Shown here: positions 35,401-55,731 of the stretch, piece by piece
Numbering within the stretch: the stretch's first letter is position 1
Layout: each line of letters opens with the position of its first letter
Source: a virus
Length of the DNA stretch: 64,000 nucleotides
Direction: 5' to 3' (one strand)
IMG/VR virus record: IMGVR_UViG_3300047552_001147
Location: 1-64,000 of that record
Position numbers and translations under genes: made by a program
Notes under the pieces: model-generated
The model's input: only the letters and a program-made list of their open reading frames with translations
The model's database searches: none
Told to the model about the DNA's origin: nothing

Positions 35401-35409
35401 TCTTATGCC
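35401..35409 (-). promoter_or_regulatory. Conserved promoter motif GGCATAAGA
   Basis: AAAA lies 15 nt upstream. Confidence 0.75.
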
Positions 35410-35421
35410 ACTTCAAGGGAG

Positions 35422-36709: not shown

Positions 36710-36710
36710 A

Positions 36711-37608: not shown

Positions 37609-37937
37609 GCGTCCTCCCCGCGTTCGAGGGCGCGAAGCTTCGCCAGCGACTCGAAGCACGCCTCAACACGCAGCAACCGCTCAGGTCTGTCCCCGCCCTC
37701 GTAATCGTCGAGGTAGCACCGCGCCTCATGCGCCTCTACCGCCGCGTCAACGATGGCGCGGGCGCGTTCCTTTGCTCTGTATTTGCCCTCTCGTTTCTTC
37801 TTCATCAAGGCCTCAGCCTGCTCGCGCGATATACCAGCTGGCGTAACAATGAAAACGTGCATACAGTACTTAGGATTTCGGTCAATTTCCACAGCCGTGC
37901 GTAAGTCCATCGGCGGGTGCTTCGGTTTGTCAGCCAC
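37605..37937 (-). CDS. Hypothetical protein
   Basis: Coupled ORF; start uncertain. Confidence 0.55.
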   Translation of the reverse strand: MADKPKHPPMDLRTAVEIDRNPKYCMHVFIVTPAGISREQAEALMKKKREGKYRAKERARAIVDAAVEAHEARCYLDDYEGGDRPERLLRVEACFESLAKLRALERGEDA

Positions 37938-38238
37938 TGGAAGACTTCTTTCTAGCTGCCTGTGCCGCCAAGTGAAGCTCCTTGAGGTTCGCTCCGTGAT
38001 TCGCGTCATCGCCAGTTCCCCAGCAACGGTCGCACTCTGCATCGGTCATTGCTGATCCACCAACGCCTCCGAAGTATGTTGCCGTGCTAGAGTACGCGCG
38101 CCTTCCTGTTCCGGTGCAGACGCGGCACGGGTATTCACCAATTCCGCGCAAGTCCCAGAAGCGGTTCCAGAACTCGGCCTCGGGGTGGCCCTTTCCGAGT
38201 AGTTCGTCGCGGGTCAACATTGCTTTGCTGTTTGTCAT
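37930..38238 (-). CDS. Zinc-finger protein with CxxCxGxG repeats
   Basis: CRVCTGTG, CDRCWGTG. Confidence 0.65.
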   Translation of the reverse strand: MTNSKAMLTRDELLGKGHPEAEFWNRFWDLRGIGEYPCRVCTGTGRRAYSSTATYFGGVGGSAMTDAECDRCWGTGDDANHGANLKELHLAAQAARKKSSSG

Positions 38239-38304
38239 ACGATCACCGTCCCAGTAAACAGTCCTAAGACTACGGCTAAAAGCATAATCGTCCACCAATC
38301 CAAT

Positions 38305-39388
38305 TCAGGGTCCTGTCGTTCCTTCATCGTCTTCCTCCTCTTCTCTACCGTATAGCGACCATTGCGCTATCTTCCGCAGAGCGCCGGTTAGTTCTACACA
38401 ACCCATTCCGCACACCGGGCAATTATCAGCCGCTCTAAATCGCTCACAATCGAAGCACCACTTGTAGTGCTGGTACTTAGGACCAGTGCTTGTCATCGAC
38501 GGCCTTCGTCAGTTTCTTGAGTAGGGTCTCCGCATGTTCCATTTCATTGGACGCGCGGTTACCCCACTCTATTTGACCTATTCTGACCTTAATTGTGCGA
38601 AGAAGCCACGAGGCCTGTTCGTCAGTCAATGATAGTGTAATCGGCTGGTCTTTGCTCATTATCAGTCGTCCTCCTGTAAGTCGCACACGCCAGAGTCATC
38701 CACCCGTGTTTTATCCAACCAGGTGAAGTACTCATTTGTGTACTTCGTTGGCCGGTCCTTCAAAAGATTGCAGTGTCTCGTATCGCTCCACTGATCAGAA
38801 TCGGTTACGCTGTGCTTACAGGATGCGCATGTCTTCAAAACACGGTAGTTGTTCTTCCCAATCATTGTTTTACCTTCTGGATTGTTTCAAGAAGATCCTG
38901 TGCTGTACAACCTATGCACCAATGAGATTGTTCATTAGGGTAGCTTTCACGACAATCAGGGAGAGTATTGTGTAGCCCGATGTCACACTTAAACTGGCTG
39001 ACGCGAATCACCAATTGCTGGAGGTTTTGCTTTTGCTTCCGCAACTGCGCTACTTCTTTACCAGTCTCCGCCAACATATCTAGGGCCTCATGATATCGCC
39101 GCTCTTGCCATACGGGATTACATCGCCGCAGGAAAGAGCCGATTCTCCACCATAGCTTCTTCATGTACCCTCCTTAGCTTGCTGAGCCAGTGCAAACTGC
39201 CAACTGCTTGTAGCGGTTAGCAGCTTATTGCGGGCGCTCAGGTATTCCGGTACATCACCACGCATAAAGGCACGTTGATACTCGTCCGCCGCCTTCACCA
39301 CGCCCTCGGCGGCGAGGCGGACGGCGTCGTCTAGCTTGCGAAGTTCAGAGCGGTCGTACTCCTCGCGATCGTAATCGTAGTAGCTCAC
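38305..39388 (-). CDS. Run of five small hypothetical genes (38305-38496, 38477-38659, 38662-38865, 38862-39164, 39161-39388)
   Basis: Tightly packed overlapping ORFs; several with Cys clusters. Confidence 0.6.
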
Positions 39389-39663
39389 GTTCCGATCTCC
39401 TTCTCGACCGCCGCGAGGGCGTCCCTAAGTCTGAAGCAGTACACGCAATCACAGTTCTCGGAAGCCCGCTTACTTGCCTCCACCAGCCGCGCGACGGCAT
39501 CGCTGCGCGCAGAGACGCGGCGGTTCCAGTTGTCCGCGCAGATCCACGTAATGTGGCCCTCGCACCCAGTGCTTGAGCAGCACGCCATCAGCCCGAATAC
39601 GCGGTGTTCTTTGGAATCCGCTTTTGCGCCGCAGAACGGGCACGCCTTGAGTTCGCTCGTCAC
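39385..39663 (-). CDS. Lar-family (restriction alleviation) zinc-ribbon protein
   Basis: ELKACPFCG...C...C...WNRR. Confidence 0.65.
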   Translation of the reverse strand: MTSELKACPFCGAKADSKEHRVFGLMACCSSTGCEGHITWICADNWNRRVSARSDAVARLVEASKRASENCDCVYCFRLRDALAAVEKEIGT

Positions 39664-40175
39664 GACTGCACCTCCTTATCAACGCGTAACTTCCTGATCC
39701 GATGAAGTAGGATCACAACAGCATCAACCGGATGGCTTTTGAAGCCTTCCCATCCGTTTGCTTGCATGTCCTTCTGAATTGTCTGGCTTTGGCCATACCA
39801 CAGCTGCTCAGTCATTTTCAACTTCTTGATTTCCTCGGCATCAGCAGCAGCTTTATGCTTCAGCTCTGCAATCTCGTCATAGAGTGTCTCAATCCTGTGG
39901 TCAACCTCCGAAACATGCTGAGACGCGGTATCGTACCAAGATCTGAGCTTCTCAAGCTCCGCCCTATGCTCATCCCGCTCTCGCCGAGCAGATCTGACAT
40001 CTTCCTTTGCTGCTTTTGTTTTAGCCTGTTCAGCTGACAGCAAATCCTGAATAGCGACAAAGACGTCCTTCACCAGGTAATCGCCGTAGTTATTGCGCAT
40101 ATGCCACGAGCGTGACATATCGCAGGGAATATCCTTGAGAATCATCTCCAGGATCTCTTTGTGTGTTTTTTTCAT
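39660..40175 (-). CDS. Coiled-coil protein
   Basis: Heptad repeats. Confidence 0.65.
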   Translation of the reverse strand: MKKTHKEILEMILKDIPCDMSRSWHMRNNYGDYLVKDVFVAIQDLLSAEQAKTKAAKEDVRSARRERDEHRAELEKLRSWYDTASQHVSEVDHRIETLYDEIAELKHKAAADAEEIKKLKMTEQLWYGQSQTIQKDMQANGWEGFKSHPVDAVVILLHRIRKLRVDKEVQS

Positions 40176-40176
40176 C

Positions 40177-40590
40177 TTAGTCCCATCCGTGGCAGCCGCA
40201 ATAGAAGCGGTCATAGCCACGATCGCCTCTTGGTTTGTAGTTCGTACATACGCCTTGACATTGCTTGGTGTGAGCTACTTCAGCGTAACCACACCACTTG
40301 CACAGGTTTGCTTCCCACGTACCGTCTACACAAGATTCGAAGAACGGCAACGAGGAATCCGACGGTCGCTCACAGGTGCATATCGCGTGGTTGGACTGGC
40401 CATAGTTGCACTCATTACCACCGCCGTATGCACCATGTCTCGCGGTTTTGCCTCCATAATGGGAGCAGCGAGCCATTCTAACCGGTAGCGGCGCACCAGC
40501 CGAAACTGATTCACACTTGTCTTCTAGATCAGCCATGTTTCTTACCCACTCCTCGCTGGGCCATTTAGGTTTCATTTTCAGGTACTCCAA
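40177..40590 (-). CDS. Cys-rich hypothetical protein
   Basis: Many Cys; C-terminal DRFYCGCHGWD. Confidence 0.6.
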   Translation of the reverse strand: MEYLKMKPKWPSEEWVRNMADLEDKCESVSAGAPLPVRMARCSHYGGKTARHGAYGGGNECNYGQSNHAICTCERPSDSSLPFFESCVDGTWEANLCKWCGYAEVAHTKQCQGVCTNYKPRGDRGYDRFYCGCHGWD

Positions 40591-40624
40591 TTTGGTTGCT
40601 AAAACAATAGGACAGGTTCGCTTG

Positions 40625-40633
40625 TCTTATGCC
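40625..40633 (-). promoter_or_regulatory. Conserved promoter motif GGCATAAGA
   Basis: Heads the 35.4-40.6 kb - strand block; divergent from the RNAP operon. Confidence 0.7.
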
Positions 40634-40657: not shown

Positions 40658-40993
40658 ATGTCTAGTCCCACAAACCAGTTATCGCAGCGCGTTAAGGACG
40701 GTCTGGCGCAACGCCTGGCCGAGTATCCCGCTGTCCTGCGTACCCGGACCTTGGGGGATATTGCTTCAACCAAGATGCGTAGAATTGAGCTCTTGGATTT
40801 GAACAAAGAAGCCGACAGATGCCGATGGCAGCTTCTCCACAATGACCCAGAGCGATTTGAGGTTATTAGCGAGAAGGAATCTCATCAAAAGCAAGAGTAT
40901 TTTGTTCGAATCATTTACAACGAGCTGGGCGACGACCAGTCAGTCGTAAAAACTAAGGAAGAGCTGCGATCCGAAGAAACCGGATCAGTTTAG
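40658..40993 (+). CDS. Hypothetical protein directly upstream of RNAP
   Basis: 111-aa ORF ending 2 nt before the RNAP start. Confidence 0.65.
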   Translation: MSSPTNQLSQRVKDGLAQRLAEYPAVLRTRTLGDIASTKMRRIELLDLNKEADRCRWQLLHNDPERFEVISEKESHQKQEYFVRIIYNELGDDQSVVKTKEELRSEETGSV

Positions 40994-40995
40994 CA

Positions 40996-43900
40996 ATGCT
41001 AGATCATCAAAAATCCTTCGAGTCTGCGATTGTTCTTGCCGAGAAGATCGTCAAAGAAGCCTTCCCGATTGTCGGCAAACACCACACGGTTCAGGCCAGC
41101 AACTTCCGCTGGCAGGGTGTTGGGTCATCTGTATCATACGACATTGCCGCCCAAAAGAAAGCCAAGCTAGAAGACAAGTCGCTTCTCGCTACCCTCCTGG
41201 CCGATGTCCAGGTAGTTGACAAGACCGGCAAAGTGCTGGATCAGCGAGACGGCCACATCGTCCTCCAGATCCCACACATCACCTCTAGAGCTTCGTACAT
41301 CCTGCAAGGGACGGAGCGCCAGGTCATCAACCAGCTTAGATTGCGCCCAGGTATTTACGCCGACTTCACGCCGGACAACAACATCAAGGTGCGCATCAAC
41401 ACGTCAGCCGCAGGCACCTACGCTGTCCTTCTGGACAGAGAGAGCCTGATAATGACGTTTAGGGTTGGCACCTCGACCAACTTCCCAATCATCTCAGTTT
41501 TGAAGGTATTGGGCCTGAACGAGGTTGAGATCCGCCAGCTGCTGGGAGACAAGATCTTCGCGGTAAACCAGAAGAAGTCTAAGCCTGATATGGATGCGCT
41601 GAAGCTGATCAAGAAGCTCCGCCCATACCACGCCACAGCCAACGTAGACGACGCTAAGAAGATGGTCGTTGACTTCCTGGCATCAAAGCCGCTGGACCCG
41701 GAAGTTAACAAGGTAACGATTGGCAAGCCGATTGATAAGGTGGACCAGTCAGCAGTTGTTGAGTGTGTGCGCAAGGCAATTTCTCTTGCCACTGGTGCCT
41801 CTGAGCCGGATGACGTCGAATCGTTAGCGTTCAAGTCGATCCTATCATTTGACGACTTCGTGGCCGAGAGACTGCTAAAGGCCATCCCCGATATCAAGCG
41901 TAAGGTTGCGTCACTGGTTGATAGAAAGCCGCAGGTGCTGTTTGCCTTGCCGCCGTCAATGTTCACAGACACTATTGACAACTTCTTCAACAAGTCTGAG
42001 TTCACGCGACACGCTGACCAGAACAACCCGATTGACATTGCCGCCGTCAACTCCCTTGTCACTACGATGGGTGAGGGCGGTATCAAGAGCACGTACGCGG
42101 TGACTGACGAGGTCCGCACGATTCACCCGTCGCACTTAGGTATCCTCGACGTGGCGCACACCTCAGAAGGTGGCAACATCGGTATTACCAACCACCTGTC
42201 GCTGGGAGCGAAGAAGATTGGCAGTGCTTTGGGCATGTCTGTCTATGACGCCCGCACAGGTAAAAGAGAAGACCACACAATCCAGGCGCTCGTTAACAAG
42301 ACCATCGCATACCCGGACCAGTATGATAACCTTGGCAAGGGGATCCCGAAGCCCAGGGGTAAGGAGATCAAGGTAAGGGCTGGCAGCTCTTTCAAGGTCG
42401 TGTCTCCTAAAGAGGTAGACTACGTTTTTACGACGCCCGACTCCTTCTTCTCGTCAACAACCTCCGCTATCCCCTTCCTGCCGAACAACCACGTTAACCG
42501 CGTGTTGATGGGTGATAAGCACATTGAGCAGGCAGTTAATCTGACGAACCCCGATAAGCCGTTGGTCATGCACGAGATGACCAGTGGCCCGGATGCCCCT
42601 AAGAAGATCTCGGCGGGCTACGAAGAGCTGTTCGGTCAGATGTTCAACATCAAGTCACCGGTCAAGGGCAAGGTCACGAAGGTGACTGCCGACGCTATCT
42701 ACATCAAGCCTACAACAGGCAAGGCGGTTCCGGTAGCTATCCACAATAACTACCCGCTGAACTCGCACACGTTCTTCCACGACACGCCCAGCGTTAAGGT
42801 CGGCGATCGCGTCAAAGAGGGTCAACCGCTGGCTGAGAGTAACTTCACCAAGGACAATGTCCTGGCTCTCGGTAAGAACCTGAGAGTAGCGTATACCGCA
42901 TACAAGGGGTATAACTTCGAGGACGGTGTTGTTATCTCCGAAGCGGCTGCTCAAAAGCTCACATCTACCCACAAGCACGAGTACCGTGTTGACGTAGATA
43001 AGAACACTAAGACTGGCGCAGACATCTTCTTTGCCGCCTTCCCGCAAGACCTTAAGTACCTGCGCGAGCTGAAAGAGCGCTACGACTCTGACGGTATCAT
43101 CAAGAAGGGCATCAAGGTAGAGCCCGGCGATATCCTTATCCCGGCGTTCCAACAGATCCCGCTGCACGCGGAGTTCGACTACAAGAGACTCGGTAAGAAG
43201 CTCGGTGATAGAGCTATCGACATCTCTCAGCGGTGGGACGGCCTAGGTCCCGCTGAAGTTATTGACGTTGTCAAGTCCAGATCGTTCATCAAGGTCTTCC
43301 TAAAGTCGGAAGAGCCTATGAAGATCGGCGACAAGATCAGTATGCGTCACGGCGGTAAGGGTATCATTACCCACATCGTCCCAGACGATCAGATGTACAA
43401 GGACGAGTCGGGCAACATCGTTGACGTGCTTTTGAACCCTCTCGGTGTGCCTAGCCGTGTCAACACTGGCCAGCTGTTTGAGACAGCGGCAGGTAAGCTA
43501 GCACAGAAGACCGGTAAGCCGTACTATACGAAGAACTTCAACGAGACGCACGGCAATACCCTAGGGAAGCTGAAGAGCGACCTCGCTGCTGCCGGTGTTA
43601 AGGATGCTGAGACCCTAACTGATCCTGTGACTGGTCGCAAGCTGCCCGAGACCCTCGTAGGCATCACGCATATCTACAAGCTTAAGCATCAGGTTGACAC
43701 GAAGTTCAAGGCTCGTGGCGCAACTGATGAGAGCTTCACTCTTGATGAGCAGCCGGCAAAAACTGACGAATCGTCCGCACAACGTATCGGTATGCTCGAC
43801 ACGTTCTCGCTGCTCTCCGGCGATGCAACGCACTTCCTGAACGACGCCTACGGTATCAAGTCACAGAAGAACGACGAGTATTGGGTTGCCCTGCAACGCG

Positions 43901-46900
43901 GGGTCATGCCTCCGCCTCCAAAGGTACCGTTCATTACAGAACGCTTCGTGACGATGTTGCTTGGTGCGGGAATCAACCTTCGCCAGGAAGGTAGCAAGCT
44001 AACCGCTGCCCCGCTCACCGACAGTCAGATCAAGAACATGTCGCACGGTGAGATCGATAAGCCGCTAGTGGTTAAGTCTACCAACCTGATGCCTGAGAAG
44101 GGCGGGCTCTTTGACCCCGTCAAGACTGGCGGTATCGGCGGTAACCGGTTCAATCACATTGAACTTGTGACACCTATCCCTAACCCGTTGATGCTGGACG
44201 CGATCACGTCCGTCGCACGTCTTCCAAAGACTGATATCCTTACACAGATCATTGATGGTAACCTCGCTGTCAATGATCAAGGTGAGGTTGTTAAGGACTT
44301 GAACGACGGAGCCAGCTTCGGTAACGGCGTGATCAATCTACTCAAGAACATTGACGTTGAGAAGGAGATCACACGCACACAGGCGGAGATCAAGACGTCT
44401 AAGGCGGATAAGCTCAACGCAGCATATCGCCGACTCAAGTATCTGCGTGCTTTGAAAGAGCTTAAGCTAAAGCCGGTAGATGCCTACACAAACAAGTTCG
44501 TTCCGATCATTCCGGCGAAGTTCAGAAATGTTCAGCCAAGAACTGACGGGTCGCTAAACGTGGCTGATGCAAACTTCGGCTATCGCGAAGTGATCATGAT
44601 CAACAACCAGCTGAAGAAGCTGTCGACTGCCGGAATCTCGCAAGATAACCTCAAGACGCTGAACCGTGACCTGTTCCGGGCCGTGTCTGGTATTACTGGT
44701 GTGACTGCCCCTCTAACGAGAGCGGCGGACGTTTCCGGCTTCATTGAGAAAATCAAAGGACCTAGCCCGAAGATGGGCTTCTTCCAGTCTAGAGTACTAA
44801 CCAGAGCGCAAGATCTGTCAGCGCGTTCTACAGTTATCCCTAACCCCAAGCTTGGGCTGGACGAGATCGGTCTACCGTCTGAGATGGCGCTAACGATCTA
44901 CAAGCCCTTTGTTGTGAAGCGTCTAGTTGGTCTTGGATATGATCCGCTACGCGCCAGAGATATGGTTGAGAAGCGAGACGAGCTCGCAATCCGCGCGCTG
45001 CAGTCGGAGATCGAAGATCGTCCGGCGATCATGAACAGAGCGCCGTCTCTGCATAAGTTCAACCTACAAGCATTTAAGCCGCGTCTAATTGAAGGTAGAG
45101 CGGTAGAAGTCAACCCGCTGATCGTTGCGGGATACAACATGGACTTCGACGGCGATACAGCTGGTATCCACGTCCCCGTGTCTGAGGATGCGCGCAAAGA
45201 GGCCTGGGATAAGTTGATGCCTAGCCGCAACCTGTTTGCTACTAGAGAGGACTCGGTTATTCACGCCCCCTCAAGAGAAACGGTTCACGGCCTGTATCTG
45301 ATGACAACGCCCAAGGGCACGCCCGTACCTGTGAAGTCGGTCAAAGAACTGATGGACATGTACAAGGACGGGAAGATCGAGGTAAACGCAGCGGTCACTG
45401 TTGGCGGTCAAGTGCAATGTGCTGGGCAGTACTTAGTTGATGCGCTAATACCGGATCAAATCAAGCTCGGCCCTGTACAGATCACATCGAAGAACCTCAA
45501 GGATCTTCTGATCAGTGTTGCTAAGACACAAGAGTCTAACAAGGCTGGCGAGATCATCTCCAAACTGAAAGACCTTGGTAACCACTACGTCACGCACGTC
45601 GGCTTCTCGATTTCACTCAACGACCTGGAGATTGATAGAGGTCTACGCGACGACATCATGACCAAGGCTAAGCAGCGCATCAAGGAAGTCGGCTTCAATA
45701 CCGCTGCCAACGAGGCGTCTAAAGGTGTCAAGGATCTGGTCAGTAAGACCAAAGACAACCGGTTCGTAGAGGTTTCGGTAACATCCGGCGCCCTAGGAAA
45801 GCTCGACTCTCTCGCACAGATGGTCGGGTCGCCAGTCGCTGTTGAGGACCACAAAGGCCGCGTCGTTCCCATGCTGATCGAGAAGTCGTATGCAGAAGGA
45901 CACGACCTAGGATCGTATTTGGCAACAGCCCCCGGTGCTCGTAAAGGCCTGGTAGATAAGGGCTTATCGGTAGGTGAGACAGGTTACTTCAACAAGAAGC
46001 TTGTGAACACCACGATCGAGTATAAGATTGTCTCGCCTGATTGTAAGACAACGATCGGCATCGATATGCCGCTTTCATCGAGTGATATCTACGATAGGTT
46101 TGTGGCCGCCGGTCCTTACCGCAATAAGCAGTTGACTCCCGAGTTCGTAAGACAGCTAACAGCGAAGGGGAAGACGAAGATTCTTGTTCGTTCCCCAATG
46201 ACATGTGCCGCAATCGGTGGCCTGTGTCAGAAGTGCTTCGGCCTCGACTCCAGCGGAAAGCTTCCGCCGATTGGATCACATATCGGAGCTCTCGCTGGCC
46301 AGACGCTAGGAGAACGTGCAACGCAAACAACGCTGAAAGCCTTCCACACCGGCGGTACTATCGGCGGACCTAAGCTAGGATTTGATCGCATCTCCGAGAT
46401 CGTGGAGATGCCTGAAACGATTAAGAACAAAGCCACGCTGGCATCTGTTTCTGGAGCAGTCAGTAAAATAGAAGAAACGCCAACAGGCGGTTGGTTCGTT
46501 TATGTGAAGGACACCAAGCACTTCGTTCCGAAAGAACTCGGATTAGGGGTTAAGCTGCGACAAGTAGTTAAGGCTGGCGATAAGCTTAGCCAAGGAGGCA
46601 CAATCAAGCCTCAAGAGCTACTTGAATACACAGGCAGCATTAACACTGTCCGCAATTATCTAGTGAACGAGCTGGCGCAAAGCTACAGCAAAGAGCAAGG
46701 TGCTTACATCAAACGAAAGCTACTAGAAACTGTTGTTCGTCCATTAACTGACAAGGCCCAGGTAACAGATGCTGGCGGGGCACTCAACAAGTTCAACGTG
46801 TATCCTGGAGATGTTCTCTCTGTCAACCTGATTAAGGACTACAATAAGCAGCTGAGAGTTTCCAAGCAACCAGAGATCAAGTTCGAGCCGATGCTGCTTG

Positions 46901-47085
46901 GAATCAATAACGCACCTTATCACAGCCAGGACTTCATTGGTCCGCTATCTCACGAGCGGTTGAAGCAGACGATCGTGCGGGCACCGCAGTTCGGCATGTC
47001 AACCGACATCGAGAAGGGTCACCCGATGGCCCAGCTGGCCCTGAAGAACCTAAGAGACATCGAAAGTACCAGAGCTAGAACGTGA
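40996..47085 (+). CDS. rpoBC: DNA-directed RNA polymerase, fused beta-beta' single polypeptide
   Basis: Beta motifs GYNFEDG, GDKISMRHGGKG, LNPLGVPSR, YKLKHQVDTKFKAR, followed by beta' motifs GGLFD, NRAPSLH, catalytic NMDFDGD, GARKGLVD, RSPMTC..CQKCFG, GERATQTTLKAFHTGG. Confidence 0.95.
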   Translation: MLDHQKSFESAIVLAEKIVKEAFPIVGKHHTVQASNFRWQGVGSSVSYDIAAQKKAKLEDKSLLATLLADVQVVDKTGKVLDQRDGHIVLQIPHITSRASYILQGTERQVINQLRLRPGIYADFTPDNNIKVRINTSAAGTYAVLLDRESLIMTFRVGTSTNFPIISVLKVLGLNEVEIRQLLGDKIFAVNQKKSKPDMDALKLIKKLRPYHATANVDDAKKMVVDFLASKPLDPEVNKVTIGKPIDKVDQSAVVECVRKAISLATGASEPDDVESLAFKSILSFDDFVAERLLKAIPDIKRKVASLVDRKPQVLFALPPSMFTDTIDNFFNKSEFTRHADQNNPIDIAAVNSLVTTMGEGGIKSTYAVTDEVRTIHPSHLGILDVAHTSEGGNIGITNHLSLGAKKIGSALGMSVYDARTGKREDHTIQALVNKTIAYPDQYDNLGKGIPKPRGKEIKVRAGSSFKVVSPKEVDYVFTTPDSFFSSTTSAIPFLPNNHVNRVLMGDKHIEQAVNLTNPDKPLVMHEMTSGPDAPKKISAGYEELFGQMFNIKSPVKGKVTKVTADAIYIKPTTGKAVPVAIHNNYPLNSHTFFHDTPSVKVGDRVKEGQPLAESNFTKDNVLALGKNLRVAYTAYKGYNFEDGVVISEAAAQKLTSTHKHEYRVDVDKNTKTGADIFFAAFPQDLKYLRELKERYDSDGIIKKGIKVEPGDILIPAFQQIPLHAEFDYKRLGKKLGDRAIDISQRWDGLGPAEVIDVVKSRSFIKVFLKSEEPMKIGDKISMRHGGKGIITHIVPDDQMYKDESGNIVDVLLNPLGVPSRVNTGQLFETAAGKLAQKTGKPYYTKNFNETHGNTLGKLKSDLAAAGVKDAETLTDPVTGRKLPETLVGITHIYKLKHQVDTKFKARGATDESFTLDEQPAKTDESSAQRIGMLDTFSLLSGDATHFLNDAYGIKSQKNDEYWVALQRGVMPPPPKVPFITERFVTMLLGAGINLRQEGSKLTAAPLTDSQIKNMSHGEIDKPLVVKSTNLMPEKGGLFDPVKTGGIGGNRFNHIELVTPIPNPLMLDAITSVARLPKTDILTQIIDGNLAVNDQGEVVKDLNDGASFGNGVINLLKNIDVEKEITRTQAEIKTSKADKLNAAYRRLKYLRALKELKLKPVDAYTNKFVPIIPAKFRNVQPRTDGSLNVADANFGYREVIMINNQLKKLSTAGISQDNLKTLNRDLFRAVSGITGVTAPLTRAADVSGFIEKIKGPSPKMGFFQSRVLTRAQDLSARSTVIPNPKLGLDEIGLPSEMALTIYKPFVVKRLVGLGYDPLRARDMVEKRDELAIRALQSEIEDRPAIMNRAPSLHKFNLQAFKPRLIEGRAVEVNPLIVAGYNMDFDGDTAGIHVPVSEDARKEAWDKLMPSRNLFATREDSVIHAPSRETVHGLYLMTTPKGTPVPVKSVKELMDMYKDGKIEVNAAVTVGGQVQCAGQYLVDALIPDQIKLGPVQITSKNLKDLLISVAKTQESNKAGEIISKLKDLGNHYVTHVGFSISLNDLEIDRGLRDDIMTKAKQRIKEVGFNTAANEASKGVKDLVSKTKDNRFVEVSVTSGALGKLDSLAQMVGSPVAVEDHKGRVVPMLIEKSYAEGHDLGSYLATAPGARKGLVDKGLSVGETGYFNKKLVNTTIEYKIVSPDCKTTIGIDMPLSSSDIYDRFVAAGPYRNKQLTPEFVRQLTAKGKTKILVRSPMTCAAIGGLCQKCFGLDSSGKLPPIGSHIGALAGQTLGERATQTTLKAFHTGGTIGGPKLGFDRISEIVEMPETIKNKATLASVSGAVSKIEETPTGGWFVYVKDTKHFVPKELGLGVKLRQVVKAGDKLSQGGTIKPQELLEYTGSINTVRNYLVNELAQSYSKEQGAYIKRKLLETVVRPLTDKAQVTDAGGALNKFNVYPGDVLSVNLIKDYNKQLRVSKQPEIKFEPMLLGINNAPYHSQDFIGPLSHERLKQTIVRAPQFGMSTDIEKGHPMAQLALKNLRDIESTRART

Positions 47086-48260
47086 GAAGTGTTCACGACA
47101 CCGCCAAAGGACGCTCTCCGGAGACGTCACTAACAACTGGAACAGTAGAGCAGTGTCTTCCGAGTAAGAAGGTCTACAAGGTTCTAGTAGACAACGATAC
47201 GATCCGCTACTGCCGGTTGGTCTATACCGGAGTACAGACGGCGCTCAAGCAGGGAGACCGCGTTGTCATAATCAAGTGCGGATCAGCGGATTGGCTGATC
47301 TTGGGAATGATTGACCCTGTTCCCGGACCGTCCGAGCCGTTCATTAACATCGACCTTGACGAGCAGTTCGCGGCAGATAGGGAAGAGTTCCTGTCAGGAA
47401 ATCAGGTTGGGAACGACCCTGACTTCCGCCCAGTAGATAAGTTGGGACAGAAGGAGCCGCCGATCATGCCGGGTGACGCGCAGCTAGAGAACAGGTCCAA
47501 GACCTTCATTGGCCGTTCGCTCGTCCGCGTCTACTCCTTCGGCGACATCTTTGTGAAGGCCAGCGACATCTGCTTCACATACTACAACAAGAACAAGAAC
47601 TGGATCTTGCAACGCGGTATGGGTCTTCTTCGAAGAACGTACGGCTACTCGGAAACGATCATAACGTCGATAGCCGGTCCGCTCAAAGGCAAGACGACTG
47701 TTACCGAGACGATCACCTTTGATCCAAAAACACTGGCACCGGATATATCGGTATCCGCCGGCGTCTCGTTACCTGAAACACCCGGCACCCTGCTAGAGGC
47801 CAGCCAGACAACTGCAGGATATCGTGCCGTCCACAAGGACGTGCTAGCTGTTGAGGTGGATCACAGTACCAAGACGCTTCGAGCATCAATGGCTGTTGGC
47901 GCCTCCAATATTGATCTCCAGGCTGGTACGTTCTTGAAAGAGAATGCTGGCACGTTCACAGACCCTGTGGTGATCGATACCGCTGTCGTCGCAAACGGCC
48001 TGCATCTTCGCCTTGGCGGCGGGTATGACATCGTCTATGACGAGCAAACGAACACGCTCGCTATCACAGGCATAAGCTCCAGAAACCAGGTTAAGCTGTC
48101 AGATCAGGCTTTATCCTTGGTGCGTGGAGAGCAGTCCTTAGTACTCTCGGACGATGGCCTGTCAGGAACTGTCCGGAATTTCCGGATGGTTGTCGAGGGC
48201 GAAAGTATCGAGACCGCTGGCACGAAGTCCATCCAGGCCACAACGATCAGGCTGAACTAA
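47082..48260 (+). CDS. Baseplate central spike (gp5/GpV-like)
   Basis: N-terminal OB-fold-like segment (GTVEQ...GDRVVI...WLILG); beta-strand-rich C-terminus; adjacent to PAAR. Confidence 0.6.
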   Translation: MRSVHDTAKGRSPETSLTTGTVEQCLPSKKVYKVLVDNDTIRYCRLVYTGVQTALKQGDRVVIIKCGSADWLILGMIDPVPGPSEPFINIDLDEQFAADREEFLSGNQVGNDPDFRPVDKLGQKEPPIMPGDAQLENRSKTFIGRSLVRVYSFGDIFVKASDICFTYYNKNKNWILQRGMGLLRRTYGYSETIITSIAGPLKGKTTVTETITFDPKTLAPDISVSAGVSLPETPGTLLEASQTTAGYRAVHKDVLAVEVDHSTKTLRASMAVGASNIDLQAGTFLKENAGTFTDPVVIDTAVVANGLHLRLGGGYDIVYDEQTNTLAITGISSRNQVKLSDQALSLVRGEQSLVLSDDGLSGTVRNFRMVVEGESIETAGTKSIQATTIRLN

Positions 48261-48553
48261 TGAATCTATCAAAAGTAGGCGATATCGGCGAGGGTGTCTG
48301 CCCTAACCACAAATCCGCCCAGGCGTATACCACTGTTTTTCAGACAGGCGCCCCGTCAGTGCTGATTAACGGCCAACCCGCTGCTACCGTCGAAACAGTG
48401 GGTATTGCGACCTGCGGACACCCAACAGTGGCCCTAACAGGCAGCGCAACCGTGTTTATTGAGGGGAAACCGGCCCACCGAGTGGGGGACACTGGGGCGA
48501 ACTACGGACCATATACGGCGGTATCTGGCTCTGGGAACGTTATACTTGGTTGA
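48260..48553 (+). CDS. PAAR-repeat spike tip protein
   Basis: VLINGQPAAT, CGH, TGSATVFIEGKPAHRVGD, SGSGNV. Confidence 0.9.
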   Translation: MNLSKVGDIGEGVCPNHKSAQAYTTVFQTGAPSVLINGQPAATVETVGIATCGHPTVALTGSATVFIEGKPAHRVGDTGANYGPYTAVSGSGNVILG

Positions 48554-48575: not shown

Positions 48576-48929
48576 ATGACACAAGCAAACACCGGCCGAA
48601 TCTTCTTCAATTCTGATAAGTCACCCTCAGCACCGTTGCAGGTAGCTCTAGGTAACTTCCCCACTAGTGGTGTTAAGAACGTCCTCTTCAGAAACGTGGG
48701 GGATTCTCTTATCTACGCCAGAGGGCGTGCAAACACTACAGCCACCTCACCAGACGTGTCATTGATGCCTAAGCATGGCGGAGTCATCTCCCTCATCGGC
48801 ACAGCCGGGCAGCCGGCGTACATCGAGTTCTGGAAGAGATTTGATCCGAGATTTGTCAACATTCACGACAGCTCGGCAGTTGTGAATGAGAAACCCGGTA
48901 TTGTAGAAATTGAAGGTATTCAAGGGTGA
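48576..48929 (+). CDS. Small beta-rich protein, probably virion-associated
   Basis: Context and composition. Confidence 0.5.
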   Translation: MTQANTGRIFFNSDKSPSAPLQVALGNFPTSGVKNVLFRNVGDSLIYARGRANTTATSPDVSLMPKHGGVISLIGTAGQPAYIEFWKRFDPRFVNIHDSSAVVNEKPGIVEIEGIQG

Positions 48930-48933: not shown

Positions 48934-50622
48934 ATGAGTACTCACTTTAATGGCGAGCCGCTGTTCTTTGAGAAGGCCCCGATTGTTAAGCTGGCCCGCA
49001 CTAAGCTAGGGGATGATCCGAAGCAGTGGGAGTCCGACATCCTGGAAGTCCTTCACCAGCAGCACCCATACATGCTGGACACCAACATCAGCATCAACAT
49101 GAAGAAAGTTGATGCGGAGAGCGGTACAGGTATCGGCGCTATCGTGCTCGACGGTAAGATCAACGTTCCCATCGTCATTCATAACTACAGAATGGCGCCG
49201 CTGGACGTCTTCCTTAACGACACAGAAGTGGTCCCGCTAACTCGTGAGAGAATCGAGCGGGCCATGAAGACGCTGGCCATTGGTAAGCCGGTAACCCCGT
49301 CCAAGGGCGAGGCGACCGATAGTTCTATCACGCACATGACTACCCCGCCTTATGACGGGAAGTACACGTTCGCTAGCAACCTATCGTACACCAAAGCCGA
49401 GTTCGCTTCGGCAATCAACCACACATTCAATGAGACCGGCTTCGTCCTCGATATCGCCAACAACGATCTCTGGAAAGAGGCCCTGAACTCTTACCTGACA
49501 AGTGCTCTAGAACAAGAAAAGACCGCACAGACCGGTCCAAAGTACTTCCTTGAAGAAAAAGCTCCGTTCCAGCACCAGCTTACAAAAGAGGCTGGCATTT
49601 ATTCCGTACCGACTAGTAAGGGCGACAAAGTTGGCGTTCTCGTTCCTATCACAGAAAAGCTGGCAAGCTCTACAGATCGCTGGCTGTTTGTTTCCCTAGA
49701 CGGTGGATACATTCCGCTGGCTGATCCAACGATCCCGTTCAAACCGGTAGAACACGTAAAAGTTGCTAGAAAAGAACCCGTCAGCGGCTCCGGAATCTTC
49801 GTAGCCAATAACGGTAAGCTGCAAGCAACTGAGATATTCGATGTCATCTGCAAGCTCGGCTCTGGCGACGTTCTTCTCAAGGACATCCATGGGCGGGAAT
49901 GCCGGATGGTCAAGTCCGCTAATGTGGACCGCATTCAGATGGGCGGAGGCCTCCTAGTCGTGCCGGAGAACTATATGTTCCTGCCGACGACGGAGCGCCT
50001 GAGCCTGACGCACGTTAAGGTAGCAAACCTGCTTGAGGATGGTTCTGACCGCATCACGGTTAGAAACCAAAACTCTCGTTTGCTATTCAGCAGTGGCAAG
50101 CTTTGGGAGTTCGGTGATCTGCTGTCTAAAGAGGGCAGCTATCCTGATGAAGTTCTGAACGCGCTGTCACCTTATTTTGATGACCAATCTTTGCAACTGT
50201 TGCTGACGATTCCAACCGGCCAGCAACGTACGTTTACAGTTAAGACCGCCGGCATTGATAAGACAGCTTCAGCTGATGTAGCCGTTCCGGTTATCAGTCG
50301 CGAATCGATCGCGGCTATTAACCAGGCAGCCGCTGTTATCGATCGCAAGGCCGCTGGCTTCCTTAAGATCGCCGCCAATGAGGCGAGCGAAACTGTAGAC
50401 ACACTGCTAGGCCTCAACTTCCTCAACAAGTCCAATCTTCACAAATTCGTGGAGAACATGGACAAGGTTGGCGAAGCACGCCAAATCGTGGGACAGCTTC
50501 TCATAGCCTCCCGCCTTGGCCTGGATGTGGATGACGCTCCGCTACGGACGGCGTTCTTCGCTCTAGATGAAGTTGAACAGGACCTTCAGCAGCTGTATAA
50601 CGTTACTACCGTTAACAACTAG
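48934..50622 (+). CDS. Probable head core/scaffold-type protein with many KxA sites
   Basis: VKLA, EKTA, TKEA, EKLA, VKVA x2, VKSA, VKTA, DKTA, LKIA. Confidence 0.55.
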   Translation: MSTHFNGEPLFFEKAPIVKLARTKLGDDPKQWESDILEVLHQQHPYMLDTNISINMKKVDAESGTGIGAIVLDGKINVPIVIHNYRMAPLDVFLNDTEVVPLTRERIERAMKTLAIGKPVTPSKGEATDSSITHMTTPPYDGKYTFASNLSYTKAEFASAINHTFNETGFVLDIANNDLWKEALNSYLTSALEQEKTAQTGPKYFLEEKAPFQHQLTKEAGIYSVPTSKGDKVGVLVPITEKLASSTDRWLFVSLDGGYIPLADPTIPFKPVEHVKVARKEPVSGSGIFVANNGKLQATEIFDVICKLGSGDVLLKDIHGRECRMVKSANVDRIQMGGGLLVVPENYMFLPTTERLSLTHVKVANLLEDGSDRITVRNQNSRLLFSSGKLWEFGDLLSKEGSYPDEVLNALSPYFDDQSLQLLLTIPTGQQRTFTVKTAGIDKTASADVAVPVISRESIAAINQAAAVIDRKAAGFLKIAANEASETVDTLLGLNFLNKSNLHKFVENMDKVGEARQIVGQLLIASRLGLDVDDAPLRTAFFALDEVEQDLQQLYNVTTVNN

Positions 50623-50642: not shown

Positions 50643-51689
50643 ATGGGCCACTCTAGGCCCCAAATTGCTAAAGAGTTCCGCATCAATGAGCGGACACTCT
50701 GTTGGCTAGAACAGACTGGTCGGCTCCATCTTGAGTGGAAGCCGTTAAACGGCCTGCTAACTTGTGAGCTAGACGACGACGCTCGTCGAGTGCTCGCTTG
50801 TGCTGCCGTGTCTGTTACAGCGCTGGATAACGTCCTGCCTTTCCAGCGGTTCCTCATTCTCAGAACGCTCCAGCTTCCTGCCGACGAGCAGTACCAGGAG
50901 CTGCTAGACCGCAACATCTTTGCGCCAGCTGGCTTTAGCTTAGAAGCTATCACCGCTATCAGAGAGCAGATAATTGATCGGCTTCCGCTGGTTGTGCGCC
51001 GATTTGTGAAGACTAATCGCCCGCCAGAGACAGACGAAGAGCGGCAATGGCTAGACGGTGTGCTGGATGCGTGTGAGGTTCACCTCGCGTACCACCACCC
51101 AGACCTAGAGCAATCGTTCCAGTTCATGCCGAATCCGGAGTACAAGGAAGCGGTGGATTGCGCGGTTAGCACCAAATCGAGCTACGCAGACATTCAGAAA
51201 TTCTTGATTGATGTGCTAGGATTGCGGGTATCTGTGGAGGGAATCGCCTTCTATCAGCAGCTCTTCCACGACATCAACATCGTGTCGACAGACAATCTGC
51301 GGATGTACCTAAAGAAGGTCAAGCCTTCTCTCAGATCGCGCATGGCTCTTGCTGTTAGCAGCTCGATTGATACCTTCAGAGTCAAGAGCGGCATCGACGA
51401 CAAGTTTGAAGTCGACAAGGTCATGTCCGTCTTCAAGGACGACCTGATCAACGATCTGCTCAAGATGCTGAACAATAAAGCGCCAGAATCTGAGAAGGCA
51501 TTCAACAACACGCTGCGAAGTCTGGTTATTGTTTTGGACCGCATGGACCGGATCAAAAGCGCAAACACCAAGTCTGGCAACGGCGTCCCTCAGTTCTTCA
51601 AGACAATCAAAGTCTCAGCCCAACCATCTAACGAGATGAAGATCTTCCAGCTACCATCTCCTGTTAAGGACAGCGCACAGTCACAATGA
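50643..51689 (+). CDS. Hypothetical protein, possible terminase small subunit
   Basis: Helical; coupled to the TerL start; called on position only. Confidence 0.35.
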   Translation: MGHSRPQIAKEFRINERTLCWLEQTGRLHLEWKPLNGLLTCELDDDARRVLACAAVSVTALDNVLPFQRFLILRTLQLPADEQYQELLDRNIFAPAGFSLEAITAIREQIIDRLPLVVRRFVKTNRPPETDEERQWLDGVLDACEVHLAYHHPDLEQSFQFMPNPEYKEAVDCAVSTKSSYADIQKFLIDVLGLRVSVEGIAFYQQLFHDINIVSTDNLRMYLKKVKPSLRSRMALAVSSSIDTFRVKSGIDDKFEVDKVMSVFKDDLINDLLKMLNNKAPESEKAFNNTLRSLVIVLDRMDRIKSANTKSGNGVPQFFKTIKVSAQPSNEMKIFQLPSPVKDSAQSQ

Positions 51690-55730: not shown

Positions 55731-55731
55731 G

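What the first reader, a model, noticed from the sequence alone, without database searches (positions are those of the whole stretch)
40658..48553. Single-chain beta-beta' RNA polymerase embedded in the spike/PAAR structural operon
Seen: one uninterrupted 2029-aa ORF with beta motifs followed by beta' motifs. It has the catalytic variant NMDFDGD, no Cys zinc-binding domain after GGLFD, and is much shorter than bacterial RpoB plus RpoC. Its stop overlaps the start of the gp5-like gene (GTGA). No alpha or sigma gene is recognisable in the window. Known: phiKZ-like phages split these subunits into several genes, and deep-branching multi-subunit-type RNAPs have been described in uncultured tailed phages. 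Inference: late-expressed and virion-packaged; the 111-aa upstream protein is a candidate accessory factor.
Basis: partly seen in the sequence, partly recalled or inferred. Interest (0 to 1): 0.7.

Follow-up and report, generated by a model that had tools for sequence, protein, structure and literature searches.

The report
Single-chain phage RNA polymerase (β–β′ fused)
An uncultured freshwater phage of about 190 kb encodes both large subunits of a bacterial-type RNA polymerase as one intact 2029-residue protein inside its particle-building gene block; hundreds of related phages share this design, I found no paper describing it, and the enzyme is probably carried in the virus particle to start the phage's own transcription.

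Summary
ORF 40996-47085 (+) encodes 2029 aa with RpoB-type domains followed by RpoC-type domains in one chain. The catalytic residues are intact (NMDFDGD, GDK…KG). The β′ N-terminal zinc ribbon and the lineage-specific inserts are missing.

It is not an assembly artefact. More than 100 database clusters and about 95 IMG/VR loci carry the same fusion at 32-82% identity. A unitig from a different study covers the β/β′ junction exactly.

The closest cultured relatives are Salmonella phage Arash and Vibrio phage D69. They fuse β to the N-terminal part of β′ and keep the C-terminal part of β′ separate. In Arash virion proteomics the homologue was the most-detected protein, which supports virion packaging indirectly.

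Five complete relatives each have one RNAP locus. Four of the five have a σ70-family gene. None of the four complete relatives searched has a detectable α or ω gene. This contig has a σ gene 31 kb outside the window.

Gene order (portal … RNAP → spike-like → … → TerL) is conserved across the clade.

The 111-aa upstream protein is confined to close relatives and has no fold match, so calling it an accessory factor is unsupported.

This scan has already found the same family on other DNA several times. I found no published description of the single-chain form.

The parts
32718..34682 (+). Portal protein gene (654 aa). In many relatives it lies directly upstream of the small gene and the RNAP gene.
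   Evidence: 27% identity, E 1e-72, to Arash gp204 'portal protein' and E 4e-76 to the D69 homologue. The family is found in 83 related loci. No Pfam or PHROG hit.
34880..40590 (-). Block of about 17 small leftward genes inserted between the portal gene and the RNAP operon. It is absent at this position in relatives L007, L011 and L013.
   Evidence: ORF maps and comparison of loci.
40624..40633 (-). Copy of the promoter-like motif GKCATAAGAY heading the leftward block, in the 67-bp divergent spacer before the RNAP operon.
   Evidence: 11 exact copies in the window against 0.45 expected, 10 of them on the minus strand. The motif is also enriched in close relatives L009 (4 copies) and L014 (3 copies).
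40658..40993 (+). 111-aa protein of unknown function (P0002). Its stop is 2 nt before the RNAP start.
   Evidence: Homologues only in close relatives. AF2 model pLDDT 72.7 with an alpha/beta fold and no significant fold match. hhalign to same-position proteins of other subclades gives under 1% probability in most cases.
40996..47085 (+). Single-chain RNA polymerase, 2029 aa. The beta module is about aa 1-990 and the beta' module about aa 1000-2029.
   Evidence: Pfam domains. Best PDB matches are bacterial beta' chains (6wvj_D, 9.6e-96). BLASTP blocks to Salmonella RpoB and RpoC. More than 100 full-length fused homologues.
43327..43362 (+). Beta active-site segment GDKISMRHGGKG (aa 778-789), carrying the two catalytic lysines (E. 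coli K1065/K1073 equivalents).
   Evidence: Alignment to Salmonella RpoB. G778, D779, K780, K788 and G789 are invariant in the 24-sequence alignment A3.
43966..44116 (+). Beta/beta' junction: the end of beta (…GAGINLRQEG) runs without a real linker into the beta' N-terminus (…SHGEIDKP…GGLFD).
   Evidence: Alignment. A 151-nt unitig from a run of a different study (X3) covers 43967-44117 with 0 differences, and a 14.6-kb Logan contig of X2 spans the whole gene.
44104..44175 (+). Site where the beta' N-terminal zinc ribbon is deleted (GGLFDPVKTGGIGGNRFNHIELV).
   Evidence: Alignment with Salmonella RpoC and 80 clade members.
45136..45156 (+). Catalytic Mg-binding loop NMDFDGD (aa 1381-1387).
   Evidence: D1383, D1385, G1386 and D1387 are invariant.
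46042..46236 (+). Retained second zinc site of beta' (C1683, C1737, C1744, C1747).
   Evidence: Aligned to E. coli C814/C888/C895/C898. All four Cys are invariant in A3.
47082..48260 (+). 392-aa central-spike-like protein (P0003). Its GTG start overlaps the RNAP stop (GTGA).
   Evidence: AF2 model with an N-terminal OB fold (aa 11-85) and a beta-rich C-terminus. VIA-align Z 8.5 to P2 gpV, 8.1 to the R2 pyocin spike and 9.2 to the phiKZ spike. Foldseek top full-length rows are VgrS, an eCIS spike and the phiKZ spike, at E 3-4e-3. hhalign E 5.4e-5 to the 52-member family found downstream of the RNAP across the clade.
48260..48553 (+). PAAR-domain spike-tip protein (97 aa).
   Evidence: PF05488 at 1.4e-10, above cut-off, and phrog_281 at 1e-12. 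Present only in the window and in relatives L006/L009.
48576..48929 (+). 117-aa conserved protein of the operon; function unknown.
   Evidence: Homologues in L007, L009 and L014. No Pfam hit.
48934..50622 (+). 562-aa protein, conserved across the clade downstream of the RNAP and rich in K-x-A (21 per 1000 aa). Function unknown.
   Evidence: Family found in 68 related loci. K-x-A count. No Pfam or PHROG hit.
50643..51689 (+). 348-aa protein conserved across the clade; function unknown.
   Evidence: Family found in 63 related loci.
51686..53506 (+). Terminase large subunit.
   Evidence: phrog_675 at 1.8e-69 and PF05876 GpA_ATPase at 9.6e-9.

Best explanation
The gene encodes a complete, catalytically competent, bacterial-type RNA polymerase core in a single polypeptide, with beta fused head-to-tail to beta'. 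The enzyme has lost the beta' N-terminal zinc ribbon and the lineage-specific inserts. It works without alpha or omega subunits; the covalent fusion presumably replaces the alpha-dimer assembly platform. It is the only RNAP of a roughly 190-kb uncultured freshwater contractile-tail-type phage of the Arash/D69-related clade. The gene is co-transcribed, and probably translationally coupled, with morphogenesis genes (spike, PAAR, TerL), so it is made late. Copies are packaged into the virion and delivered with the DNA to start host-independent transcription of early units, and newly made enzyme probably continues transcription later. The early units are probably the leftward blocks headed by GKCATAAGAY, and transcription is probably rifampicin-insensitive. 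Promoter choice probably uses the phage's own sigma70-family factor(s). Shown here: the identity of the protein, its intactness, the conservation of the fusion, the gene order, the single RNAP copy, the absence of alpha and omega, and the presence of sigma. Inferred: late timing, virion packaging, use of sigma, promoter assignment and rifampicin resistance.
For: Identity and intactness: Pfam Rpb2 then Rpb1 domains. The closest solved structures are bacterial beta' chains. The DxDGD triad, the GDK…KG lysines, the H1237 equivalent, the bridge helix, the trigger loop and the second zinc site are conserved. The fusion is real: at least 119 listed database clusters carry both Rpb2 and Rpb1 domains at 32-82% identity on contigs up to about 200 kb. 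About 95 IMG/VR loci carry it. An independent assembly and a run from another study cover the junction. Phage clade: in the beta' tree the single-chain forms plus Arash/D69 group at 99% SH-aLRT, separate from the four bacteria. One RNAP per genome: five complete relatives of 178-196 kb each have a single locus. Sigma70_r2 genes occur in 4 of those 5 and in this contig (r2 5.5e-14, r4 6.9e-9). No alpha (PF01000, PF01193) or omega (PF01192) was found at E<=1 in this contig or in four complete relatives, while the controls matched in 14 of 14 genomes. Structural context: portal upstream, then RNAP → spike-like → … → p562 → p348 → TerL in most of about 85 loci, with a 4-nt stop/start overlap. Packaging: in purified Arash virions Gp206 (beta + N-terminal beta') gave the most spectra of any protein (3516 spectra, 128 unique peptides), Gp216 gave 1210 and sigma Gp10 gave 467 (PMC10585845). 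Rifampicin pocket: the equivalents of Q513, H526, R529 and S531 are R, V, L and T. The promoter-like motif has 11 copies against 0.45 expected, and none precedes the RNAP operon on its own strand.
Against: There is no expression or proteome data for this phage, and no RNA run holds the sequence. The Arash preparation 'detected' 116 of its roughly 272 proteins, including ribonucleotide reductases and primase, so carry-over of abundant intracellular proteins is possible. Arash is only 30% identical to this protein. The sigma on this contig resembles Arash gp196 (E 8e-12), which does not appear in the parts of the virion table I read, more than the virion-detected Gp10 (E 7e-5). The E. coli beta' clamp-helix residues that contact sigma70 (R275, E295) are not conserved here (I, L), so sigma could instead serve the host polymerase. 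The contig is only about 49% of the genome. The bacterial sampling in the tree is thin (4 taxa, quick search).
Confidence: 0.6

Rival explanations
1. The protein is a functional single-chain RNAP but is not a virion component. It is made inside the infected cell and transcribes middle or late genes only. Early genes are read by host RNAP, possibly redirected by the phage sigma factor(s). Its position among structural genes would reflect co-regulation only.
For: The Arash virion list includes many non-structural enzymes, which suggests contamination. RNAP-lacking jumbo phages use phage sigma factors with host RNAP (PMC7598289; PMC13282480). The beta' clamp-helix sigma-contact residues are not conserved. 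The window's sigma is closest to Arash gp196, which does not appear in the parts of the virion table I read.
Against: If the gene is late, as its neighbours suggest, a late-made non-packaged enzyme could not transcribe earlier classes, and no second RNAP exists. Gp206 ranked first among all Arash virion proteins, above the major capsid protein. The RNAP gene stays between portal and spike/TerL across RNAP divergence down to about 33% identity.
Confidence: 0.27
2. The gene is a recently captured or contaminating cellular rpoB-rpoC (for example from a bacterium with a natural rpoBC fusion), or a chimeric mis-assembly that joins two genes.
For: Natural rpoB-rpoC fusions exist in Helicobacter and Wolbachia (my own knowledge, not tested here). 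The best PDB matches are bacterial.
Against: Identity to bacterial RpoB/RpoC is only 26-28%. The protein is in a phage-only clade. It is flanked by portal, spike, PAAR and TerL genes on a 94.5-kb viral contig. Hundreds of fused homologues exist in viral contigs. No relative was found in 185,579 species genomes with this query's patterns. The junction is covered by an independent assembly and by a run of another study.
Confidence: 0.02
3. The protein is an inactivated polymerase relic kept as a structural or ejection protein.
For: The A-to-M change in the NADFDGD loop, loss of the zinc ribbon, and the protein's position among structural genes.
Against: All three catalytic Asp, both beta lysines, the bridge helix, the trigger loop and the second zinc site are invariant or nearly so across 24 to 80 homologues. 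That is the pattern of purifying selection on catalysis.
Confidence: 0.03

Closest known systems
RNAP of Salmonella phage Arash (Gp206 + Gp216; OQ632216.1; PMC10585845) and of Vibrio phages D69/D181/D148
   Same: They share a clade in the beta' tree (99% SH-aLRT). Beta is fused directly to the beta' N-terminus. The zinc ribbon is absent (GGLFD…TGG…W.H). The gene is linked to the portal gene. Genome size is about 180-190 kb, and sigma70-family genes are present. The Arash proteins were abundant in virion MS.
   Different: In Arash and D69 beta' is cut after about window residue 1470 into a separate gene of about 606 aa, which lies 4.7 kb away in Arash. Here the whole core is one chain. Their catalytic loop is AADYDGD, against NMDFDGD here. 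Identity is only 28-31%. The Arash paper annotates Gp206 simply as 'subunit beta' and does not mention the fusion in the passages I read.
mReC, the multisubunit-RNAP-encoding Caudovirales (Weinheimer & Aylward 2020, PMC7481178)
   Same: Tailed phages from metagenomes with bacterial-like beta and beta' that branch apart from cellular RNAPs.
   Different: mReC were selected as two separate genes with an NADxDGD motif. Every metagenomic-phage entry in the supplementary table part I read has separate beta and beta' genes of about 890-1490 aa. mReC have T4-like MCP (PF07068) and TerL (PF03237); the TerL here is of the GpA_ATPase/phrog_675 type. The paper mentions fusion only for crAss-like phages.
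phiKZ/AR9-type jumbo-phage virion and non-virion RNAPs
   Same: Phage-encoded relatives of cellular multisubunit RNAP, with no alpha or omega. One set is packaged and injected for early, rifampicin-resistant transcription (PMC7598289).
   Different: Those enzymes are split into 4-5 polypeptides, occur as two paralogous sets, and have no sigma homologue. Here there is one chain, one set and a sigma70-family gene.
Single-chain two-barrel virion RNAPs: crAss-like phage gp66-type RNAP, YonO, Thermus phage P23-45 tape-measure-fused RNAP (PMC10770324)
   Same: [quoted passage not shown]
   Different: Those are so diverged that ordinary beta/beta' profiles do not recognise them (PMC7481178). The present protein hits six Pfam RpoB/RpoC domains and aligns along nearly the full length of bacterial beta and beta'.
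Cellular rpoB-rpoC fusions (Helicobacter, Wolbachia)
   Same: The same beta-then-beta' order in one chain (my own knowledge).
   Different: Those are full-size cellular enzymes that work with alpha2 and omega. This one is about 26% shorter than the Salmonella pair (which matches E. coli in length), is encoded by a phage, and has no detectable alpha or omega. No direct comparison was made because no such sequence was fetched.

Membership tests
Bacterial-type multisubunit RNAP catalytic core (beta + beta') | Beta' double-psi beta-barrel with the three-Asp Mg loop (NADFDGD) | tested here: met
   NMDFDGD at aa 1381-1387. D1383, D1385 and D1387 are invariant. Rpb1_2 at 6.7e-25.
Bacterial-type multisubunit RNAP catalytic core (beta + beta') | Beta barrel with two catalytic lysines, plus the Rpb2_6 domain | tested here: met
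   GDK…R.G.KG is aligned to E. coli K1065/K1073. K780 and K788 are invariant. Rpb2_6 at 2e-58.
Bacterial-type multisubunit RNAP catalytic core (beta + beta') | Bridge helix, trigger loop and C-terminal zinc site of beta' | tested here: met
   These align with Salmonella RpoC 765-945, and the four Cys are invariant.
Bacterial-type multisubunit RNAP catalytic core (beta + beta') | Beta' N-terminal zinc ribbon (C70/C72/C85/C88) | tested here: not met
   Deleted in the window protein and in all 80 aligned clade members.
Bacterial RNAP holoenzyme (alpha2-beta-beta'-omega-sigma) | Alpha and omega subunits encoded or used | tested here: not met
   PF01000, PF01193 and PF01192 gave no match at E<=1 in this contig and four complete relatives; the controls matched in 14 of 14 genomes. 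Use of host alpha or omega cannot be excluded.
Bacterial RNAP holoenzyme (alpha2-beta-beta'-omega-sigma) | A sigma70-family initiation factor that binds this core | tested here: inconclusive
   The gene is present (r2 5.5e-14, r4 6.9e-9), and in 4 of 5 complete relatives. Binding to the phage core was not established.
mReC (PMC7481178) | Separate beta and beta' genes, each at least 800 aa | tested here: not met
   A single 2029-aa ORF. The mReC table part I read lists two genes per metagenomic-phage contig.
mReC (PMC7481178) | NADxDGD motif in beta' | tested here: not met
   NMDFDGD here. About half of the wider single-chain clade does have NADFDGD.
mReC (PMC7481178) | T4-like MCP (PF07068) and TerL (PF03237/VOG01069) | tested here: not met
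   The TerL hits PF05876 and phrog_675, not PF03237. The MCP was not examined.
phiKZ-type phage RNAPs | Beta and beta' each split into several polypeptides, with two paralogous sets (virion and non-virion) | tested here: not met
   One chain. One Rpb1_2 locus in each of five complete relatives.
Arash/D69-type phage RNAP | Beta fused to the beta' N-terminal part, with common ancestry | tested here: met
   The Arash gp206 and D69 homologues align to aa 48-1470 and 32-1469 across the junction. Clade support 99%.
Arash/D69-type phage RNAP | A separate beta' C-terminal gene (about 606 aa) | tested here: not met
   The chain is continuous here and in more than 100 homologues.
Virion-packaged RNAP (functional class) | The protein is present in purified virions | not testable with these tools
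   The only evidence is Arash virion MS on a 30%-identical homologue.
Central spike (gp5 / gpV / VgrG type), for the 392-aa neighbour | N-terminal OB fold | tested here: met
   Model aa 11-85: Z 8.5 (rmsd 3.5, 75 aligned) to P2 gpV 3qr8, and Z 8.1 to the R2 pyocin spike 4s37. Z is equally high to IF1-type OB folds.
Central spike (gp5 / gpV / VgrG type), for the 392-aa neighbour | C-terminal trimeric beta-helix that carries a PAAR tip | tested here: inconclusive
   The model is a monomer with overall pLDDT 58.6. Its C-terminus is a run of short strands. Full-length spike matches have E 3-4e-3 and high rmsd. A PAAR gene follows directly.
PAAR (PF05488), for the 97-aa neighbour | Pfam PAAR_motif above the gathering score | tested here: met
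   41.7 bits against a cut-off of 27; E 1.4e-10.

The most novel reading that the evidence does not exclude
The clade-wide, translationally coupled pairing of the RNAP gene with the central-spike gene may reflect a physical delivery route. The single-chain polymerase, pre-loaded with a phage sigma factor, would ride in the tail or baseplate lumen behind the spike/PAAR tip, or be the first protein through the portal. It would enter the cell ahead of the DNA as a self-sufficient two-component holoenzyme (beta-beta' plus sigma). That would make it the smallest known sigma-dependent cellular-type transcription machine, and one that assembles without alpha or omega.
Probability: 0.12. Interest if true: 0.85.

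Novelty: new variant of a known kind. Interest (0 to 1): 0.62.

Why it matters
Phage relatives of cellular RNA polymerase are known as many-piece enzymes without sigma (phiKZ, AR9), as two-gene enzymes (mReC), or as unrecognisably diverged single chains (crAss-like phages, P23-45). This family is a fourth design. It is a readily alignable bacterial-type core made as one chain, about a quarter shorter than the Salmonella pair (which matches E. coli in length), with no alpha or omega but with the phage's own sigma70-type factor, and probably carried in the virion. If it is active it would be a minimal, genetically portable sigma-dependent RNAP. That bears on how a core assembles without alpha, on RNAP evolution, on phage independence from host transcription and from rifampicin, and on synthetic biology. 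Cultured relatives (Arash, D69) make the ideas directly testable. The family is large and widespread in freshwater, marine and other metagenomes, yet I found no paper describing the single-chain form.

Tried and rejected
(1) Complex prediction of the contig's sigma with beta' residues 1000-1480 gave no verdict (score 0.00). This is neither support for nor evidence against binding.

I used IMG/VR loci from the search for related loci instead.

(3) The genome-contig scan with P0001 patterns found no relative, so there is no host hint.

(4) No RNA holder was listed for the stretch, so expression is untested.

(5) Rfam (gathering threshold) and a tRNA scan of the window found nothing.

(6) I tested whether the D69 split is a group I intron. 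There is no intron family in L002 at E<=0.1.

(7) For the 111-aa protein: no Pfam or PHROG hit. The AF2 model's best Foldseek row is the NikR C-terminal domain at E 0.06, which I reject as chance. hhalign to same-position proteins of other subclades, Arash gp205 and D69_0260 gave probabilities of at most 23%. I therefore dropped the idea that it is a conserved RNAP subunit or an omega analogue.

(8) K-x-A motif: the RNAP has 6 against 13.9 expected from composition, while two neighbouring proteins have 21-28 per 1000 aa. This fits a protein that must survive a prohead protease, but the cleavage code is itself only a hypothesis, so I did not use it as evidence.

(9) megablast of the region against phage genomes found no match.

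(10) Literature searches for a described single-chain beta-beta' phage RNAP (and reads 20-22, 35, 38, 104, 105) found none. The library lacks most subscription journals.

Full report
OBSERVATION

The window is the first 64 kb of a 94,506-bp IMG/VR viral contig that CheckV rates as about 49% complete. An uninterrupted ORF runs from 40996 to 47085 on the + strand and encodes 2029 aa.

Pfam finds RpoB-type domains first: Rpb2_3 at aa 340-405 and Rpb2_6 at aa 557-921 (E 2e-58). RpoC-type domains follow: Rpb1_1, Rpb1_2 (6.7e-25), Rpb1_3 and Rpb1_5 between aa 1007 and 1927. The best PHROGs are two 'unknown function' families of about 1200 positions, ahead of the families annotated as phage RNAP subunits.

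The finding's coordinates (40658-48553) cover four genes:
- a 111-aa ORF;
- the RNAP;
- a 392-aa ORF whose GTG start overlaps the RNAP's TGA stop (GTGA at 47082-47085);
- a 97-aa PAAR protein (PF05488, 1.4e-10).

ANATOMY OF THE PROTEIN

BLASTP against Salmonella RpoB and RpoC, fetched from a mislabelled record in the phage collection, gives these aligned blocks:
- aa 78-123, 254-715 and 764-956 align to RpoB 112-158, 425-884 and 1049-1295;
- aa 1012-1787 and 1795-2000 align to RpoC 30-939 and 1137-1339.

Identity is 26-32%. The gaps fall where E. coli carries the lineage-specific inserts (SI1 and SI2 in beta, SI3 in beta').

An 81-row alignment (80 clade members plus the Salmonella sequences) shows the following:
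- The beta' N-terminal four-Cys zinc ribbon is deleted in every member (GGLFD…TG-G..G..W.HI.L).
- The second zinc site is retained (DCxT … C..G.C..C.G).
- The bridge helix and trigger loop are retained.
- The beta segment GDK…R.G.KG and the H1237 equivalent are retained.
- Beta ends at …GAGINLRQEG and continues with almost no linker into the beta' N-terminus.

In a 24-sequence alignment the three catalytic Asp, both beta lysines and the four Cys are invariant.

The A-to-M change (NMDFDGD) marks the window's subclade, about 24 of 80 sequences. About half of the family has the canonical NADFDGD, and Arash and D69 have AADYDGD.

In the rifampicin pocket the equivalents of Q513, F514, H526, R529 and S531 are R, H, V, L and T. 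By analogy with known resistance positions, this predicts intrinsic rifampicin resistance. That is an inference.

THE FUSION IS REAL AND COMMON

A search of the 5.8-billion-protein collection returned 482 hits. Of the 120 listed, all but one carry both Rpb2 and Rpb1 domains. They are 32-82% identical and mostly 1990-2150 aa long, on contigs up to about 200 kb. Many longer ones (2350-3100 aa) carry intein or LAGLIDADG Pfam domains.

Three scans of IMG/VR gave about 95 loci.

Logan contigs from the probable source sample (a freshwater metagenome) span the whole gene with no differences. A 151-nt unitig from a run of a different study (freshwater sediment) covers 43967-44117, exactly the junction, with no differences.

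RELATIVES AND PLACEMENT

No phage genome matches at the DNA level. By tblastn the best isolates are Vibrio phages D69, D181 and D148 (about 187 kb, 28% identity) and Salmonella phage Arash (180.8 kb, 30.6%).

In both, a gene of about 1525 aa fuses beta to the N-terminal two-fifths of beta'. A separate gene of about 606 aa encodes the rest. Both lie just after the portal gene and a small ORF. No group I intron explains the D69 split.

I built a beta' tree with 38 rows, IQ-TREE PMSF and a quick search. The four bacteria form one side (100). The single-chain proteins plus Arash/D69 form a clade (99), with Arash/D69 as its sister branch. Rhizobium phage TM30, Vibrio phage 1.031.O and E. coli phage IME392 form another clade. 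YerA41 and Carin-5 sit on very long branches. The bacterial sampling is thin, so this excludes a recent capture from the sampled groups and nothing more.

The published mReC lineage was defined from two separate genes with an NADxDGD motif, with a T4-like MCP and TerL. All metagenomic-phage entries in the supplementary table part I read have two genes. The window's TerL is of the GpA_ATPase/phrog_675 type. The window's phage is therefore not an mReC member as that lineage was defined.

GENOME CONTEXT

I called ORFs in about 85 related loci and built iterated HMMs from the window's proteins. The results:
- The portal family (window 32718-34682; E 1e-72 to Arash gp204) is found in 83 loci.
- The order RNAP → protein of 375-490 aa → protein of about 95-230 aa → 'p562' (68 loci) → 'p348' (63 loci) → TerL (51 loci) holds across the clade.
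- In many loci (L007, L011, L013, the L034-L052 group, L103, Arash, D69) the portal gene and a gene of about 100 aa come directly before the RNAP.
- In the window and its nearest relatives (L006, L009) a block of small leftward genes (34.9-40.6 kb) has been inserted between them.

The 52-member family of proteins downstream of the RNAP matches the window's 392-aa family by hhalign (E 5.4e-5 over 326 columns, probability 67%).

An AF2 model of the 392-aa protein is mediocre (pLDDT 58.6). It shows an N-terminal OB fold and a beta-rich C-terminus. The best full-length Foldseek rows are central spikes: VgrS, an eCIS spike and the phiKZ spike, at E 3-4e-3. The OB domain scores Z 8-9 to P2 gpV and the R2 pyocin spike, but equally well to IF1-like OB folds. 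Together with the PAAR gene that follows, a central spike is the best reading, though it is not proven. PAAR itself occurs only in the window's subclade.

THE REST OF THE TRANSCRIPTION APPARATUS

Five complete relatives (178-196 kb, CheckV 100%, three with terminal repeats) each have exactly one RNAP locus. Four of the five have a Sigma70_r2 gene.

This contig has a 277-aa sigma with regions 2 and 4 at 77897-78730 (-). It has a clear homologue in the 193-kb relative (4e-61).

No alpha (PF01000, PF01193) or omega (PF01192) was found at E<=1 in this contig or in four complete relatives. The same searches matched in all 14 control genomes.

Reviews up to 2026 state that jumbo-phage multisubunit RNAPs lack sigma homologues, and that phage sigma factors occur in RNAP-less phages. 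The combination seen here is therefore unusual.

Whether this sigma serves the phage core or the host core is open:
- The beta' clamp helices are present, but the E. coli sigma-contact residues R275 and E295 are I and L here.
- The complex prediction gave no verdict.
- The window's sigma is closer to Arash gp196 than to the virion-detected Gp10.

VIRION PACKAGING

The Arash paper (PMC10585845) reports LC-MS of purified particles. Gp206 gave the most spectra of any protein (3516 spectra, 128 unique peptides). Gp216 gave 1210 and sigma Gp10 gave 467. [quoted passage not shown] The list of 116 proteins includes ribonucleotide reductases and primase, so the preparation was not clean.

Three lines together point to a late-made, packaged and injected RNAP, which I rate at about 60%:
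- the conserved position between portal and spike/TerL;
- the 4-nt stop/start overlap;
- the absence of any second RNAP.

A promoter-like motif, GKCATAAGAY, has 11 copies against 0.45 expected, 10 of them leftward. One lies in the divergent spacer at 40624-40633. The motif heads the accessory blocks but not the RNAP operon, and it recurs in the closest relatives. These blocks are candidate early units for the delivered enzyme. That is an inference.

THE 111-aa PROTEIN

Homologues occur only in close relatives. Small genes at the same position in other subclades, and Arash gp205 and D69_0260, show no convincing profile similarity. The AF2 model (pLDDT 72.7) has a helix-strand-helix-strand-strand-helix arrangement, no significant structural match, and does not resemble the all-helical omega subunit. 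I found no support for calling it an accessory factor.

PRIOR WORK

I found no paper that describes a single-chain, alignable beta-beta' RNAP in phages (searches and reads). The library omits most subscription journals.

Earlier entries of this scan report the same family on other genomes and reach the same reading: a single chain, Arash as the closest relative, sigma present, alpha and omega absent. I read those entries after making my own tests.

VERDICT

This is a new variant of a known kind, phage-encoded multisubunit-type RNAP. The window holds an intein-free member with an NMDFDGD loop. The variant has likely biological and practical interest, and it can be tested in cultured relatives.

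Noticed in passing
window 4750-62375 (11 sites, e.g. 40624-40633 -): The promoter-like motif GKCATAAGAY occurs 11 times against 0.45 expected. Ten copies are on the minus strand, ahead of leftward accessory gene blocks. It is also enriched in close relatives L009 (4 copies) and L014 (3 copies), all on the minus strand.
   Followed up: partly
homologues P0008-P0122; loci L013, L076, L085-L087, L093, L096, L109: Many single-chain RNAP homologues are 2350-3100 aa long and carry LAGLIDADG or intein Pfam domains (PF14528, PF14890, PF05204). The window's copy is intein-free.
   Followed up: no
window 48934-50622 and 62482-63654; RNAP 40996-47085: The K-x-A tripeptide is very frequent in the 562-aa protein (21 per 1000 aa) and the 390-aa protein (28 per 1000 aa). 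It is absent from the MCP candidate, the spike and sigma, and is about 2.3-fold under-represented in the RNAP (6 against 13.9 expected).
   Followed up: partly
window 54285-55838 (-): A nicotinamide/nicotinate phosphoribosyltransferase gene (PF04095 at 2.5e-39, plus NAMPT_N), which looks like an NAD-salvage auxiliary gene.
   Followed up: no
window 27585-29714 (+): A 709-aa protein with an N-terminal Mtd_N domain (major tropism determinant N-terminus, 1e-11) and phrog_9648 'tail protein', so probably a tail fibre.
   Followed up: no
window 343-3570 and 8055-13499 (+): Two very large ORFs (1075 and 1814 aa) have no Pfam or PHROG hit. The 1814-aa protein has weak homologues upstream of the portal gene in relatives L007, L011 and L013.
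   Followed up: no
L019 (Cobetia phage Carin-5) 2150-8975: In this 155-kb phage a sigma-factor gene lies directly upstream of separate beta and beta' genes. This is another phage that pairs its own sigma with its own multisubunit RNAP. Its beta' sits on a very long branch.
   Followed up: no
L001 (Arash) 13448-18187; L002 (D69) 11479-12118: The two halves of the Arash RNAP are separated by 4.7 kb holding nine genes on both strands. In D69 the gap is only about 640 bp, and D181/D148 have a homing endonuclease in the region. Mobile elements may have caused the split.
   Followed up: partly
contig 77897-78730 (-), outside the window: A sigma70-family gene (277 aa, regions 2 and 4) lies 31 kb downstream of the RNAP gene. 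It is more similar to Arash gp196 (8e-12) than to the virion-detected Arash Gp10 (7e-5).
   Followed up: partly
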